Part shown: positions 16,627 to 19,563 of the stretch, one piece after another | How the letters are laid out: each line of letters opens with the position of its first letter | Numbering within the stretch: position 1 is the stretch's first letter | Assembly: GCA_963737905.1 (NCBI GenBank) | Contig: CAVTUQ010000010.1 | Coordinates: 1 to 64,000 of the forward strand | Source: an uncultured delta proteobacterium | GTDB lineage: Bacteria > Desulfobacterota > Binatia > UBA9968 | Length of the DNA stretch: 64,000 nt | Direction of reading: 5' to 3' | The notes under the pieces: model-generated | Told to the model about the DNA's origin: nothing | Seen by the model: the letters and a program-made list of their open reading frames with translations, nothing else | Database searches by the model: none | Made by a program: the position numbers and the translations under genes

Positions 16627-16880
16627 AGCTGATTTCCCCTGAGGATCGCCAAGTAATCAGGAAAGCTCAGACCAAGCGTCGCCGCGAGCGGTCCGAGCAA
16701 CAACGAGTGCACGCCCATCTCGTATAGACGTCGGAAGTCTGTCTCCAAAAGGGCGAGTTGCTCCTCTTCGCTGAGCCGGTATTCGGCGATCAGAGTTTCT
16801 CGCTCGCCAAGAAACCGGTCGAACATCTTCGGTTCACGGTTGACGTGGAAGAGAAGCTTCTGAACTTCGTAAAGACTCAT
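16623..16880 (-). CDS. LigA-like small subunit of extradiol dioxygenase
   Basis: MSLYEVQKLLF...LSEEEQLALL..D...LYEMGVHSLLL; 4-bp overlap with the LigB-type gene. Confidence 0.8.
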   Translation of the reverse strand: MSLYEVQKLLFHVNREPKMFDRFLGERETLIAEYRLSEEEQLALLETDFRRLYEMGVHSLLLGPLAATLGLSFPDYLAILRGNQL

Positions 16881-16886
16881 ACCTGT

Positions 16887-16952
16887 GTTTCAAGTTCAAA
16901 TCGTTCAAGCCGTTCAATCGCTTCGCTCCGTTCAATCCCCCTCCTTTATCCT
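16887..16952. repeat. Left half of the composite palindromic repeat split by the IS110 insertion
   Basis: GTTCAA 9-mers followed by cccctcctttatcct; continues at 18474. Confidence 0.85.
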
Positions 16953-16964
16953 TATATTAACATC

Positions 16965-17180
16965 ATTGCAGATTGACATAGAGGAGATCATGTTTATGTG
17001 ACACCGATTTCAAGAGCTTGCTGGTTGAGGACCACCTTTATCCTATCCCTTATTCGAGGATCTGGGAGAGACTGTCCCGGCCAGTAAGAGAACGGAGCTA
17101 GAGGTTCAATAGAAAGTAGTCCCCTTTTGGAGGACCGATATAAGGCTAACTTTCCGTTCAGAGCTATTGGGATTGGAATT
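16965..17180 (+). ncRNA. Predicted IS110 bridge RNA (target-binding and donor-binding loops)
   Basis: Guides at 17035-17044 (target left + core), 17064-17070, 17109-17117 (donor left) and 17138-17144 (reverse complement of core + donor right) lie in two internal loops; RNA ends are approximate. Confidence 0.88.
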
Positions 17181-17203
17181 ACATAACGGAGGAGTAACAG
17201 ACA

Positions 17204-18430
17204 GTGAAACGATACTACATAGGAGTGGATTGGGGCGACCGCTTGCATCAGGTGTACGTCGGCGATGAGGAGGGGAAGAAGGTAAGAGAGATGAAAGTGC
17301 CAGAGAGCCCGGAGGGGTTGGCCGAGATCGGGCGCTGGCTCGACGAGCGAAGAGCCGAGGGGCTTGAGCTGTGGGCGGCCATTGAGAAGCCGGCGGGGCG
17401 GATTGTGGACTTTCTGCTCGATCACGGGGTGGAGGTTTACCCGGTCAATCCCAAGGCGCTGGATCGAGTGCGGGATCGTTATCGAATGAGCGACTCGAAG
17501 AGCGATGCGTTTGATGCCTATGTGTTGGCGGAGTTTCTGAGAACCGATCAGGCGCACTTGAGAGTGCTTCGACCGAGCTCTGAGAAAGCCCAAGAGCTTA
17601 AAATCCTGAGTCGGGATCAGCGCCGAGTGGGGCGCCAGAAAACGCGGTTGCTCAATCAGCTCACCACCACGCTCAAAGAGTATTATGCTCGGCCCCTGGA
17701 GGCCTTTGAGGACCTGGAGACTGAGATCGCCCTGGATTTTCTCAAACAGTATCCGACCCCGGCTCACCTCAGTGCACTTAAACGTAAAGAGTTCAATCGC
17801 TTTGCCACCACCCAACATCATCTCAGTAAACAGCGCTGTGAGGAGTTGTGGAAAAAGCTTAACCAACCGCAACTTGCGGTGCCCGAACATGTGGTCAGAG
17901 CCAAGGCACAGCTGGTTGAGGTCCTCATCGAGCAGCTTCGGGCTTCGATCAAAGCGGTGAAGATCTATAACCACAAGGTCGAGAGTTTTTTCGCCTCTAG
18001 CCCGGCCGCTCAGTTTGCTAAGACGCTGCCGGGCGCAAAAAGCGGAACCCTGGTGGCGGCGATCTCGGCCGAACTCGGCGATGCCCAGGGTCGCTGGGAA
18101 TCCTCTCGCCATCTTCAAGCCGAAGCGGGAGCGGTACCGGTGACCAAAGCCAGTGGCAAGAGTCATGTCGTACATTTTCGTTTTGCCTGTAACAAGCATC
18201 TGCGCCACGCGATGTACTGGTTTTCCTTTGTCTCGCTCAACCACAGTGAGTGGGCTAAGCTCTACTACCGGGGACAGAGGGATAAAGGTCATAGCCATCA
18301 CCAAGCGTTGCGCGCCCTGGGAGCCAAGTGGCTCAAGATTATCTTTGTGATGTGGCGAGACCATAAGCCTTACGATGAAAATTTCCACCTGGCCAACATC
18401 GCTCGTCAGAAGATGCGTCAGGCGGCGTGA
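17204..18430 (+). CDS. IS110 family recombinase/transposase (DEDD RuvC-like + Tnp domain)
   Basis: YIGVDWG, AIEKP, KSDAFDA acidic tetrad; AGAVPVTKASGKS serine motif; RBS ggaggag before GTG. Confidence 0.95.
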   Translation: MKRYYIGVDWGDRLHQVYVGDEEGKKVREMKVPESPEGLAEIGRWLDERRAEGLELWAAIEKPAGRIVDFLLDHGVEVYPVNPKALDRVRDRYRMSDSKSDAFDAYVLAEFLRTDQAHLRVLRPSSEKAQELKILSRDQRRVGRQKTRLLNQLTTTLKEYYARPLEAFEDLETEIALDFLKQYPTPAHLSALKRKEFNRFATTQHHLSKQRCEELWKKLNQPQLAVPEHVVRAKAQLVEVLIEQLRASIKAVKIYNHKVESFFASSPAAQFAKTLPGAKSGTLVAAISAELGDAQGRWESSRHLQAEAGAVPVTKASGKSHVVHFRFACNKHLRHAMYWFSFVSLNHSEWAKLYYRGQRDKGHSHHQALRALGAKWLKIIFVMWRDHKPYDENFHLANIARQKMRQAA

Positions 18431-18450
18431 AATATTTTTTAAAAAAGGGC

Positions 18451-18456
18451 TTGACA
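18451..18456 (+). promoter_or_regulatory. -35 box (TTGACA) of the IS110 circle-junction promoter
   Basis: In the circular form it lies exactly 17 nt upstream of TATATT (16953-16958). Confidence 0.85.
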
Positions 18457-18473
18457 AGTTTCATAGAAAGTCT

Positions 18474-18544
18474 CCCCCGCGTCCGCTCGCGTCCGCGGGG
18501 GAGGAAAGAGGTGGGGGATGGAACGGCTTGAACGTCTTGAACGG
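18474..18544. repeat. Right half of the composite palindromic repeat split by IS110
   Basis: cccccgcgtccgctcgcgtccgcgggggaggaaagaggtggggg then TTGAAC 9-mers. Confidence 0.85.
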
Positions 18545-18564
18545 CCATGTTTGACACAGCCCCG

Positions 18565-19563
18565 CTAGCGATAGAGCTGCTCGATCCAGTTCTCCTTAAC
18601 CAACCTCTCCAGAGGAACAGGATCGCGAAAATAATCCGGCCGATTCATCATCTCCTTGGGCACCGGGCTGCTTTCGGCAAGCTCTTCCAAAACCGCCTTG
18701 ATCCCGCCATCCGTTACCGTTGGCAGGCGCTTGAAAAGGTCCGCATAGACCTGAACGGTTCTCTTGGCGATCTCAGGATCTGGTTGCCGGAGCCACTTAT
18801 TAAAAACTTTCTCGGTGAACGAACGGTCTTTCTTTATGAGGTGAATTGCCTCGACGTAGGCTCTGAGAAAGCGGTCAACGACTCTCGGGCTTTCTTTGAT
18901 GAAGACCCGGCTGCTGACCACGCAAGACGCCGGGTAAACGAAATCGGTCTTCGTCAGATCGAGCAGAACCGGCCATCCTTTTTGCAAATAGGGAAGGGCG
19001 AGATTGAACGGCAAAGCCGCGGCGTCAATCTGTCCCGCCTCCAGTGCCCCGGAGAAATCCAATCCGAGCTGCAGGACTTTGACATCCTTTGGATCCAGCC
19101 CGGCATACCGCAGCGCCGCGCGCAAATAAAAATGCGTGGTCGACCCTAGCCGCGTCACCGCCGCTGTCTTGCCTTTTAGCTCGGCGGCGTTTTTCATTCC
19201 CGGTCGCGCGATCAGGTAAACCGCATCGGCATCGACAGGACAAGCCAACAGAGCGACGTCGCCGCCTTTGAGTCGTGCCGCCACGACCGAAGCGGCCCCC
19301 GCCCCCGAAAAATTCAGCTCCCCGCTCACCACCCCCATCGTGATCAAGGTCCCGCTCTGGATGAAGATGACTTCAACGTTAGTCAGGCCATGCTTCGAGA
19401 ACAAACGCGCATCTTGGGCAACCCATACCGGAAGGTTCATAATGCTGTTGGTTGTCCCGTAGCGAAGGAGCTGCGTCTCCTGGGCAAACGCGAAACTTGA
19501 CAGCGCTCCCATGCAACAACCGAGCACCAATAACCGAAGACCAGATCCGCTGACCATAGTCAT
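18565..19563 (-). CDS. NitT/TauT family ABC substrate-binding protein
   Basis: LPVWVAQDARLFSKHGL, ELKGKTAAVTRLGS. Confidence 0.9.
   Translation of the reverse strand: MTMVSGSGLRLLVLGCCMGALSSFAFAQETQLLRYGTTNSIMNLPVWVAQDARLFSKHGLTNVEVIFIQSGTLITMGVVSGELNFSGAGAASVVAARLKGGDVALLACPVDADAVYLIARPGMKNAAELKGKTAAVTRLGSTTHFYLRAALRYAGLDPKDVKVLQLGLDFSGALEAGQIDAAALPFNLALPYLQKGWPVLLDLTKTDFVYPASCVVSSRVFIKESPRVVDRFLRAYVEAIHLIKKDRSFTEKVFNKWLRQPDPEIAKRTVQVYADLFKRLPTVTDGGIKAVLEELAESSPVPKEMMNRPDYFRDPVPLERLVKENWIEQLYR

What the first reader, a model, noticed from the sequence alone, without database searches (positions are those of the whole stretch)
16965..17180. Readable bridge RNA in the left end of an IS110 element: four guides in two symmetric 12x12 loops
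Seen in sequence: the 250-bp non-coding left end folds into an enclosing stem (17004-17013 with 17167-17176) carrying two hairpins. Hairpin 1 (17021-17084) has an internal loop CACCTTTATCCT (17033-17044) / CTGGGAGAGACT (17062-17073). CCTTTATCCT matches the left flank plus core (16943-16952) 10/10, and GGGAGAG is complementary to core plus right flank with one mismatch. Hairpin 2 (17091-17158) has a loop CAATAGAAAGTA (17107-17118) / CGATATAAGGCT (17136-17147). ATAGAAAGT equals the element's right end (18463-18471) 9/9, and ATATAAG is the exact reverse complement of core plus left end CTTATAT. Established: this is the target-binding/donor-binding loop architecture of IS621-type bridge recombinases. 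Inference: this is an intact RNA-guided recombinase with its own target and donor specificities and a 408-aa recombinase, longer than IS621's. The mechanism class is published; whether this element is described I cannot tell.
Basis: partly seen in the sequence, partly recalled or inferred. Interest (0 to 1): 0.95.

Follow-up and report, generated by a model that had tools for sequence, protein, structure and literature searches.

The report
IS110 insertion sequence with bridge RNA
This is an intact-looking IS110-type jumping gene whose left end encodes a bridge RNA, with four short guides that match its insertion site and its own ends; it is a clear example of a mechanism published in 2024, not a new one.

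Summary
Window 16953-18471 is an IS110-group insertion sequence flanked by the CT core (16951-52, 18472-73). It has a 251-bp left end, a 408-aa DEDD/Ser recombinase gene (17204-18430) and a 41-bp right end.

The left end folds into a closing helix that carries two hairpins, each with a 12x12 internal loop.

Evidence from 108 related loci in soil MAGs and metagenomes:
- The right target guide matches core plus right flank 7/7 in 62 of 81 distinct insertions, against a mean of 4.3/7 for mismatched pairs.
- The left target guide matches its left flank at 8 or more of 9 positions in 48 of 74 insertions, against 3.4% of mismatched pairs.
- Donor guides equal the element ends in 84 of 85 (left) and 84 of 84 (right).
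- A covariance model of the RNA hits 97 of 100 sources, always upstream of the gene.

Two features differ from IS621. A closing helix and a 3-4-nt linker join the two loops, and the left-guide register varies by one base among relatives.

No RNA or activity data exist. Verdict: a new member of a known kind, of moderate interest.

The parts
16894..16950 (+). Left arm of the long imperfect palindrome that is the target. The last 8 nt (16943-16950) are the left target read by the LTG.
   Evidence: The reconstructed empty site folds into one long hairpin (-82 kcal/mol, z = -8.9 against mononucleotide shuffles).
16951..16952 (+). Core dinucleotide CT, left copy.
   Evidence: The same CT follows the right end at 18472-18473.
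16953..17203 (+). Left end (251 bp, non-coding). It begins with TATATT (16953-16958), the -10 hexamer of the junction promoter. The predicted start of the RNA is near 16965.
   Evidence: TATATT is present in 84 of 85 parsed relatives. The RNA start is inferred from the hexamer position only.
16968..16993 (+). Possible 5' stem-loop.
   Evidence: It appears in the MFE fold. 70% of cells are paired across 64 relatives, against 33-50% when slid. Support is moderate, and RNAalifold did not predict it.
16994..17018 (+). 5' strand of closing helix P1. The core is 17004-17013, with 17015-17018 and a possible extension at 16994-17001.
   Evidence: The core helix is 87% paired and 6 of its 10 pairs show changes on both sides. 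In 53 of 64 single folds, an enclosing helix of at least 8 pairs appears.
17019..17086 (+). Target-binding hairpin. Outer stem 17019-17032/17074-17086; 12x12 loop 17033-17044/17062-17073; distal stem-loop 17045-17061.
   Evidence: The outer stem is 95.7% paired and the distal stem 97.3%.
17035..17044 (+). Left target guide (LTG), identical to left target plus core (16943-16952) at 10/10.
   Evidence: Family covariation is shown.
17064..17070 (+). Right target guide (RTG), complementary to core plus right target (18472-18478) at 6/7.
   Evidence: Family result: 62 of 81 events match 7/7, and mutual information lies on the expected diagonal.
17071..17072 (+). Handshake dinucleotide AC of the target-binding loop, complementary to GT (18470-18471), the two donor bases before the core.
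   Evidence: The position is assigned by analogy with IS621 nucleotides 81-82 (PMC11208158). It is invariant in the family, so complementarity is seen but covariation is not.
17091..17158 (+). Donor-binding hairpin. Outer stems 17091-17096/17153-17158 and 17102-17106/17148-17152; 12x12 loop 17107-17118/17136-17147; distal stem-loop 17119-17135.
   Evidence: The three helices are 99.7%, 92.5% and 100% paired.
17109..17117 (+). Left donor guide (LDG), equal to the right end 18463-18471 at 9/9. The next loop base (17118, A) does not match core C.
   Evidence: LDG matches 9/9 in 84 of 85 relatives. Loop position 12 equals core C in only 21 of 85.
17138..17144 (+). Right donor guide (RDG), the reverse complement of core plus left end (16951-16957) at 7/7.
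   Evidence: 7/7 in 84 of 84.
17145..17146 (+). Handshake dinucleotide GC of the donor-binding loop. Its G can pair with C at 16950, the target base just before the core.
   Evidence: That target base is C in 69 of 71 events, and the G is invariant.
17162..17186 (+). 3' strand of closing helix P1.
17204..18430 (+). Recombinase gene, 408 aa, GTG start, with a GGAGGAG ribosome-binding site at 17190-17196. It has a RuvC-like DEDD domain, an expanded coiled-coil region and a Tnp domain with Ser317.
18431..18471 (+). Right end (41 bp) with the -35 hexamer TTGACA at 18451-18456. The left donor is 18463-18471.
   Evidence: TTGACA is present in 79 of 85 relatives. The spacer to TATATT across the junction is 17 nt in 84 of 85.
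18472..18473 (+). Core dinucleotide CT, right copy.
18474..18542 (+). Right target (18474-18478) and the rest of the palindrome. The apical hairpin is 18474-18481 paired with 18494-18501.

Best explanation
Window 16953-18471 is an IS110-group insertion sequence that works like IS621.

Inferred cycle, by homology to IS621:
1. The element leaves its site as a circle in which the right end meets the left end across one CT.
2. That junction creates a strong sigma-70 promoter: TTGACA from the right end, a 17-nt spacer, and TATATT from the left end.
3. The promoter drives an RNA of about 220 nt from the left end.
4. The RNA binds the 408-aa DEDD/Ser recombinase and presents two internal loops.

[quoted passage not shown] In loop 2, LDG (17109-17) and RDG (17138-44) read the right-end/CT/left-end junction in the same way. 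The dinucleotides after each 3' guide (AC and GC) can pair with the other DNA after top-strand exchange. Recombination at CT then inserts the element.

The natural target is the 5' arm of a GC-rich palindrome between genes.

Shown here: the sequence anatomy, the structure with covariation, the guide-flank covariation in relatives, and the catalytic residues. Inferred by homology: transcription, RNA-protein binding, the chemistry, and whether this copy is still mobile.
For: - Anatomy and the four matches are read from the sequence.
- Recombinase family. A family profile hits IS621 (8wt6) at E = 8e-39 and ISCro4 at 4e-38, with the DEDD and SG motifs aligned. E61 and D101 are invariant, and D9, D104, S317 and G318 are at least 90% conserved in 105 sequences.
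- Structure: RNAalifold recovers two hairpins with open loops. Of 46 pairs, 93.6% of cells are paired against 21-49% when slid, and 15 pairs have changes on both sides against 4.3 in shuffles. Frequent G-U pairs fit an RNA of the + strand only.
- RTG: of 81 non-identical insertions, 62 match 7/7, 18 match 6/7 and 1 matches 5/7. Across 4734 mismatched pairs the mean is 4.34, and 60 are 7/7. There are 21 distinct loop sequences.
- RTG register: loop positions 7 to 3 have their highest mutual information with flank positions +1 to +5, with complementarity of 1.00, 0.88, 0.99, 0.97 and 0.93 over 69 events.
- LTG: 74 events have a mean of 7.8/9, and 48 reach 8 or more. Across 4306 mismatched pairs the mean is 5.36, and 3.4% reach 8 or more. 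There are 38 distinct loops.
- Donor guides and junction promoter are conserved. In the two most divergent relatives, three donor changes are mirrored in the LDG.
- Covariance model R1 hits 97 of 100 sources, always on the gene's strand and upstream of it. The 3 misses have no left end in the locus.
- The layout matches IS621 as described in PMC11208160 and PMC11208158 (passages read): a 2-nt linker, a 7-nt RTG ending in AG, and a 2-nt handshake guide.
Against: - There is no direct evidence of the RNA. Contigs from three RNA-labelled soil runs cover the left end and the gene of relatives at 90-95% identity, but such libraries can hold DNA and contigs cannot show transcript ends.
- No promoter-like site is found in the integrated copy.
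- The single-sequence MFE pairs parts of the LTG with the RTG and redraws hairpin 2.
- This copy is alone in an 87%-complete genome, and no perfect target is left there.
- The RTG has one mismatch to its flank.
- The LDG does not cover the core, unlike the description of IS621.
- The LTG register differs by one base among relatives.
- Relatives are kin, so event counts overstate independence.
Confidence: 0.9

Rival explanations
1. The architecture is that of a bridge-RNA element, but this copy is a stranded relic that no longer moves in its host.
For: It is a single copy in the genome. There are 0 perfect and 1 one-mismatch match to the 15-nt target, and that one match is the guide itself. The RTG has a mismatch to its own flank. 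No promoter-like site exists in the integrated state.
Against: The reading frame is open and full length, and all catalytic residues are kept. All four guides, the junction promoter hexamers and the structure are at the family consensus. One RTG mismatch is seen in 18 of 81 natural insertions. Twenty-one sites within 2 mismatches exist in the genome, about 6 of them in similar palindromes. Relatives of 92-95% protein identity sit at many different sites.
Confidence: 0.2
2. The left-end structure is mainly a 5' untranslated leader that controls translation of the recombinase. Site choice is made by the protein, and the guide-like matches are by-products of conserved ends.
For: The closing helix may extend to 17186, four bases from the ribosome-binding site. 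There is no separate terminator between the RNA and the gene.
Against: Loop 1 changes together with the flanks while the scaffold stays constant, which protein-only recognition does not predict. The ribosome-binding site is unpaired in the fold. The family is homologous to IS621, where RNA guidance is shown (PMC11208160, passages read).
Confidence: 0.04
3. It is an IS1111-type (seekRNA-like) element whose guide RNA lies in the right end.
For: It belongs to the same protein superfamily.
Against: The right end is only 41 bp, against 251 bp for the left end. There are no 7-17-bp sub-terminal inverted repeats, only ATA...TAT around the donor. Both loops lie in the left end. These are the IS110-group traits listed in PMC11208160, section 12.
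Confidence: 0.01

Closest known systems
IS621 of Escherichia coli (IS110 group) and its 177-nt bridge RNA (Durrant et al. 2024, PMC11208160; Hiraizumi et al. 2024, PMC11208158)
   Same: - CT core, a long left end and a short right end.
- A promoter split across the circle junction.
- The target-binding loop comes before the donor-binding loop.
[quoted passage not shown]
- A 2-nt handshake guide follows each 3' guide.
- G is the first handshake base of the donor loop, facing T.
- DEDD plus Ser-Gly catalytic residues.
- A palindromic intergenic target.
   Different: - The proteins are only distantly related: single-sequence E = 1e-5, rising to 8e-39 only with a family profile.
- The recombinase is 408 aa against 326 aa, with about 77 extra residues in the coiled-coil region.
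- The loops are 12x12.
- The inter-loop linker is 3-4 nt, against 11 nt (nucleotides 99-109) in IS621.
- A closing helix joins the sequence before loop 1 to the sequence after loop 2. The IS621 description names no such helix.
- The LDG stops before the core.
- The LTG here runs up to the distal stem without the 1-nt linker of IS621.
ISPpu10 of Pseudomonas putida (IS110 group; bioRxiv 10.64898/2026.03.19.712850, abstract and section 7 read)
   Same: It targets a repeated intergenic palindrome (REP), and a hairpin in the target DNA adjoins the guide-matched bases.
   Different: In ISPpu10 the stem-loop is a 5' extension folding onto the left target. Here core plus right target is the 5' arm of the apical hairpin, in 37 of 71 distinct right flanks against 12.2 expected.
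ISCro4 / IS622 (PDB 9t56; bioRxiv 10.1101/2025.05.14.653916, passages read)
   Same: It is the best single-sequence hit among solved structures (E = 1.5e-8) and has the same domain order.
   Different: It belongs to the IS621-like clade that was screened for genome editing. The present family lies outside that clade by sequence.

Membership tests
IS110 family, IS110 group (bridge-RNA elements) | Recombinase with a RuvC-like DEDD domain and a Tnp domain carrying the catalytic Ser | tested here: met
   PF01548 at 6e-33 and PF02371 at 1.5e-10. NF033542 at 153 bits against a cut-off of 140. D9, E61, D101, D104 and S317-G318 are conserved in 105 relatives and align to the IS621 motifs.
IS110 family, IS110 group (bridge-RNA elements) | CT core dinucleotide at both junctions and no long terminal inverted repeats | tested here: met
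   CT is at 16951-52 and 18472-73. Only ATA...TAT flanks the donor. In relatives my parse required CT, so its presence there is partly by construction.
IS110 family, IS110 group (bridge-RNA elements) | Non-coding left end much longer than the right end, with the RNA in the left end | tested here: met
   The ends are 251 bp and 41 bp. Model R1 hits only upstream of the gene, in 97 of 100 sources.
Bridge RNA (IS621 type) | Two stem-loops with internal loops, target-binding first and donor-binding second | tested here: met
   The first loop is variable and the second is conserved, as described for IS110 left ends in PMC11208160.
Bridge RNA (IS621 type) | A 5' stem-loop before the target-binding hairpin | tested here: inconclusive
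   A hairpin at 16968-16993 appears in the MFE. It is 70% paired in relatives and is not predicted by RNAalifold.
Bridge RNA (IS621 type) | Loop 1 covaries with the left and right target; loop 2 matches the donor junction | tested here: met
Bridge RNA (IS621 type) | [quoted passage not shown] | tested here: not met
   The LTG, RTG and RDG of the window copy include CT. The LDG does not (17118 is A, followed by the stem). Loop position 12 equals core C in only 21 of 85 relatives. Many relatives' LTGs miss the core T, or both core bases.
Bridge RNA (IS621 type) | Handshake guides complementary to positions 6-7 of the other DNA | tested here: met
   AC (17071-72) faces donor GT (18470-71). G (17145) faces target C (16950), and that base is C in 69 of 71 events. 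The second base of the donor-loop handshake does not pair in the window copy.
Bridge RNA (IS621 type) | Sigma-70 promoter rebuilt at the right-end/left-end junction | tested here: met
   The promoter is TTGACA-17 nt-TATATT. In 85 relatives the -35 is exact in 79, the spacer is 17 nt in 84 and the -10 is exact in 84. This is sequence evidence only.
Bridge RNA (IS621 type) | The RNA is made, binds the recombinase and directs recombination | not testable with these tools
   Laid RNA-library contigs are inconclusive.

The most novel reading that the evidence does not exclude
This family may represent a distinct structural class of bridge RNA: a clamped three-way junction. A conserved closing helix (about 14-22 bp) and a 3-4-nt linker hold the bases of the two guide hairpins together.

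In the IS621 synaptic complex the corresponding stem ends are about 80 Angstrom apart. If that geometry holds here, the two loops of one RNA molecule could not serve the same synapse. Either two RNAs per synapse are obligatory, or the synapse has a different shape, possibly matched by the recombinase's coiled-coil region, which is about 77 residues longer.

The one-base variation in where the left target guide meets the core, within one constant scaffold, would then say how much register slack the enzyme tolerates.
Probability: 0.2. Interest if true: 0.55.

Novelty: new member of a known kind. Interest (0 to 1): 0.35.

Why it matters
The mechanism class has been in print since 2024, so the finding does not open a new question. 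Its value is as material.

The family is far from the IS621-like clade used for genome editing, and it is known here only from uncultured soil bacteria. It offers at least 38 natural left-guide loops and 21 natural right-guide loops on one nearly invariant scaffold, each with its real insertion site. That is a natural reprogramming series. It shows which mismatches and registers are tolerated in nature, for example one right-guide mismatch in 18 of 81 insertions.

The closing helix, the short linker, the core-less left donor guide and the longer coiled coil are testable differences from IS621. They bear on how many RNA molecules a synapse uses. For genome annotation, the case shows that element ends, target and donor can be read from sequence alone.

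Tried and rejected
- Rfam 15 has no family matching the region. Only two chance-level hits appeared, both in the flanks.
- Other copies in the own genome: none by DNA or by covariance model (150 of 1259 first-look candidates were scored). Five other PF01548 genes exist, but they are not of this RNA type.
- Same phylum: 0 of 150 other sampled genomes have the RNA. This is a sample, scored with stricter filters, so it means 'not found', not 'absent'.
- Plasmid collection: no relative above 36.5% identity.
- RNA evidence: three RNA-labelled runs hold contigs of relatives over the left end and the gene. Depth is higher over 17065-17174 in one run, but depths sum over all relatives and DNA carry-over cannot be excluded. 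I do not count this as expression.
- One contig in that call joins 16947 to 18498 with 20 other letters between. It looks like an unoccupied palindrome of a relative or paralog, but its depth is 2.7 at 85% likeness, so I do not count it as an empty site.
- A fixed register for the left guide was rejected. The best register is 0 in 45, +1 in 18 and -1 in 7 of 75 events, with 5 ties. C-runs make some calls ambiguous, but L012, L017, L061 and L072 (+1) and L013, L068, L069, L074, L082 and L090 (-1) are clear.
- A mutual-information map for the left guide was blurred by this register shift and by shared ancestry, so I used own-versus-mismatched pairing instead.
- Literature: a search for 'bridge RNA' plus 'three-way junction' listed 4 papers, none about a closing helix. 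This one search does not show that the feature is unpublished.
ISfinder could not be consulted.
- A protein structure prediction was not obtained.

Full report
**What is in the window**

The stretch 16953-18471 is bounded by the same dinucleotide, CT (16951-52 and 18472-73). It holds a 251-bp non-coding left end, one gene (17204-18430, GTG start, 408 aa, with GGAGGAG at 17190-96) and a 41-bp right end.

The protein has the two Pfam domains of IS110 transposases: PF01548 at 6e-33 over residues 6-161, and PF02371 at 1.5e-10 over residues 273-356. It also passes NCBI's model NF033542, 'IS110 family RNA-guided transposase', at 153.2 bits against a cut-off of 140.

Against solved structures, the single sequence finds ISCro4 (9t56, E = 1.5e-8) and IS621 (8wt6, E = 1.2e-5) only weakly. 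A profile of 105 relatives finds them at 4e-38 and 8e-39, and aligns the GxD, xxE, DxxD and SG motifs. In that alignment of 105 sequences, E61 and D101 are invariant, and D9, D104, S317 and G318 are at least 90% conserved.

The profile aligns positions 2-152 with IS621 residues 8-155, and positions 241-392 with residues 167-323. So about 77 extra residues lie within what is the coiled-coil domain of IS621 (residues 123-188 according to PMC11208158). Lengths of 399-430 aa are usual among the 150 best representatives. In the library of 50%-identity cluster representatives, 8876 score E <= 1e-3 and 535 score E <= 1e-30.

**Check of the observation**

- 17035-17044 equals the left flank plus core at 10/10.
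- 17064-17070 is complementary to core plus right flank at 6/7.
- 17109-17117 equals the right end at 9/9.
- 17138-17144 is the exact reverse complement of core plus left end.

The MFE fold of 16953-17203 is -72.8 kcal/mol, with z = -2.19, and 3 of 200 shuffles fold as well. It contains the enclosing stem 17004-13/17167-76 and the outer stem of hairpin 1. It also pairs eight positions of the two sides of loop 1 with each other, and it redraws hairpin 2.

It does not hold up in comparison. RNAalifold on 64 distinct left ends predicts both hairpins and leaves both loops open.

- 93.6% of cells paired, against 21-49% with the partners slid by 1-3 columns.
- 15 pairs with changes on both sides, against 4.3 +/- 1.5 in shuffles, with 0 of 500 shuffles as high.

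The closing helix is 87% paired, and 6 of its 10 pairs change on both sides. In 53 of 64 single folds, a helix of at least 8 pairs encloses both hairpins. Many pairs alternate between G-U and G-C or A-U, which fits an RNA of the + strand and not its complement. A 5' stem-loop (16968-93) and an extension of the closing helix (16994-17001/17179-86) have only moderate support, at 70% and 75% paired.

**Relatives**

One protein-guided scan of species genomes gave 28 loci, at 61-92% identity over the best segment for the near-full-length ones. All are MAGs labelled Binatia, Deltaproteobacteria, Verrucomicrobiia, Udaeobacter, Gemmatimonadales or Sulfotelmatobacter. One scan of metagenome contigs gave 236 relatives, of which the best 80 were kept, at 72-95% identity.

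An anchored parse of these 108 loci plus the window found loop 1 in 93. The other 16 lack the left end or were too divergent for the anchors. A covariance model built on 52 trimmed sequences then hit 97 of 100 sources. There was one hit each, always on the gene's strand and just upstream of it. The three misses (L019, L073, L089) have no left end in the locus.

**Do the guides change with the flanks?**

Yes. This is the main evidence that the matches are functional.

Right target guide (loop-1 3' side, positions 3-9):
- Of 81 non-identical insertions, 62 match core plus right flank 7/7, 18 match 6/7 and 1 matches 5/7.
- Across 4734 pairings of a guide with the flank of an element carrying a different guide, the mean is 4.34, and 60 are 7/7.
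- There are 21 distinct loop sequences, and very different guides each match their own flank.
- Mutual information is highest exactly on the expected diagonal. Loop positions 7, 6, 5, 4 and 3 go with flank positions +1 to +5, with complementarity of 1.00, 0.88, 0.99, 0.97 and 0.93 over 69 events.

Left target guide (5' side, positions 3-11, best of three registers):
- 74 events have a mean of 7.8/9, and 48 reach 8 or more.
- Across 4306 mismatched pairings the mean is 5.36, and 3.4% reach 8 or more.
- There are 38 distinct loops.

Donor side, which is nearly invariant:
- The LDG equals the right end 9/9 in 84 of 85, and the RDG matches 7/7 in 84 of 84.
- In the two most divergent relatives (L016, L017), three changes in the right end are mirrored in the LDG. 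Each also has one unmatched position.

Relatives share ancestry, so these event counts are not independent trials. The numbers of distinct guides are the safer measure.

(a) Junction promoter. Joining the right end to the left end across one CT gives TTGACA (18451-56), a 17-nt spacer, then TATATT (16953-58). Among 85 relatives with both ends parsed, the -35 is exact in 79, the spacer is 17 nt in 84 and the -10 is exact in 84. My anchor allowed one change in the -35 and spacers of 16-20 nt. The integrated copy has no promoter-like site in 16700-18700. This is the split promoter described for IS621 (PMC11208160).

(b) Handshake guides. In IS621, the two bases after each 3' guide pair with positions 6-7 of the other DNA after strand exchange (PMC11208158). 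Here AC (17071-72) is complementary to GT (18470-71), which precedes the core in the donor. The G at 17145 can pair with the C at 16950, which precedes the core in the target. That base is C in 69 of 71 events. Both are invariant in the family, so this is complementarity without covariation.

(c) Loop layout. The 3' side of loop 1 has a 2-nt linker, a 7-nt guide ending in AG, a 2-nt handshake guide and a 1-nt linker. This reproduces the order given for IS621.

(d) The target. The rebuilt unoccupied site folds into one long imperfect hairpin, 16894-16952 with 18474-18542 (-82 kcal/mol with RNA parameters, z = -8.9 against mononucleotide shuffles). The insertion point lies in its 5' arm, just before the apical stem 18474-81/18494-501.

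Among 71 distinct right flanks of relatives, core plus right target has its reverse complement (at most 1 mismatch) 9-50 nt downstream in 37, against 12.2 expected from shuffles. Targeting of intergenic palindromes is known for IS110 elements, and a role for a target hairpin is claimed for ISPpu10 (bioRxiv 10.64898/2026.03.19.712850, abstract and section 7).

In the own genome there is no perfect 15-nt target. Twenty-one sites lie within two mismatches, about six of them in similar palindromes.

**Differences from IS621**

1. The two hairpins are separated by only 3-4 nt (17087-90), and a closing helix ties the sequence before loop 1 to the sequence after loop 2. IS621 is described as a 5' stem-loop, loop 1 (nucleotides 34-98), an 11-nt linker and loop 2 (110-177). 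The stem ends are about 80 Angstrom apart in the synapse, so the two loops are thought to come from two RNA molecules. With the clamp seen here, one molecule could not span that distance. Therefore either the two-RNA model also applies here, or the synapse differs. This is inference only.

2. The LDG stops before the core. Base 17118 is A, and the matching base is C in only 21 of 85 relatives. IS621's four guides are all said to include the core.

3. The place where the left guide meets the core is not fixed. Taking the window copy as register 0 (core at loop positions 11-12, with no linker before the distal stem), the best register is 0 in 45 of 75 events, +1 in 18 and -1 in 7, with 5 ties. 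The -1 group has the IS621 layout: a 9-nt guide followed by a 1-nt linker. Runs of C make some calls ambiguous, but ten loci are clear. I have no explanation for this beyond tolerance of the enzyme.

**What is shown and what is inferred**

Shown: the element's limits, the recombinase family and catalytic residues, the RNA structure with covariation, guide-flank covariation, the junction promoter sequence and the palindromic target.

Inferred from homology with IS621 and relatives: circle formation, transcription from the junction, RNA binding, serine-mediated strand exchange at CT, and mobility of this copy. Recent work disagrees on whether excision is cut-out or copy-out, and on single-strand intermediates (abstracts of PMC13626964, 10.64898/2026.08.31.748434 and 10.1101/2025.10.25.684509). 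Nothing here bears on that question.

RNA-labelled soil runs contain contigs of relatives over the left end and the gene, but that does not show transcription.

**Distribution and novelty**

The RNA type is found once in its own genome. It was found in 0 of 150 other sampled genomes of the phylum. It has no close relative among 72,556 plasmids, where the best hit is 36.5% identical. It is common in soil metagenomes.

The class was published in 2024, and bridge RNAs were then predicted for 85.7% of the IS110-group elements catalogued in ISfinder (274 IS110-family recombinases in all). NCBI already names the protein family as RNA-guided. I could not see the supplementary tables or ISfinder, so I cannot say whether this particular family is listed.

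Noticed in passing
window 16894-16952 with 18474-18542; also the right flanks of L007, L009, L020 and L023: The target palindrome is large, with arms of about 55 bp. Its outer arms consist of repeated GTTCAA/TTGAAC-like units. Similar units flank insertions in several relatives from other MAGs, which suggests a widespread REP- or MITE-like intergenic repeat family in these soil bacteria.
   Followed up: partly
G000 contigs C25:71071-71508, C37:85153-85590, C33:31600-32046, C26:212099-212482, C19:97986-98411: The same genome holds five further IS110-family (PF01548) genes. Two have identical scores and 418-aa frames, so they are probably two copies of one element. None carries the RNA type of this finding. 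Their own left or right ends were not examined for other bridge-RNA types.
   Followed up: no
L010, L083-L086, L091, L093, L096-L098, L100, L101, L103-L108: One sub-family with an identical loop 1 sits at about a dozen or more different sites whose left flanks differ by one C in a C-run. Most are best matched one base out of the register used by the window copy. It is a natural test case for guide slippage.
   Followed up: partly
L018:1501-2725 and upstream; L019: L018 has the RNA and the gene, but its left and right ends are replaced by unrelated sequence (no TATATT start, and the right end diverges after CATA). L019 lacks the first 76 residues and the left end. Both look like decayed or rearranged copies.
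   Followed up: no
window 16986-17003: A GGAG-ATG-TTT-ATG-TGA mini-frame lies in the 5' part of the RNA. The frame is not kept in relatives with a one-base deletion there, so it is probably not a coding feature.
   Followed up: partly
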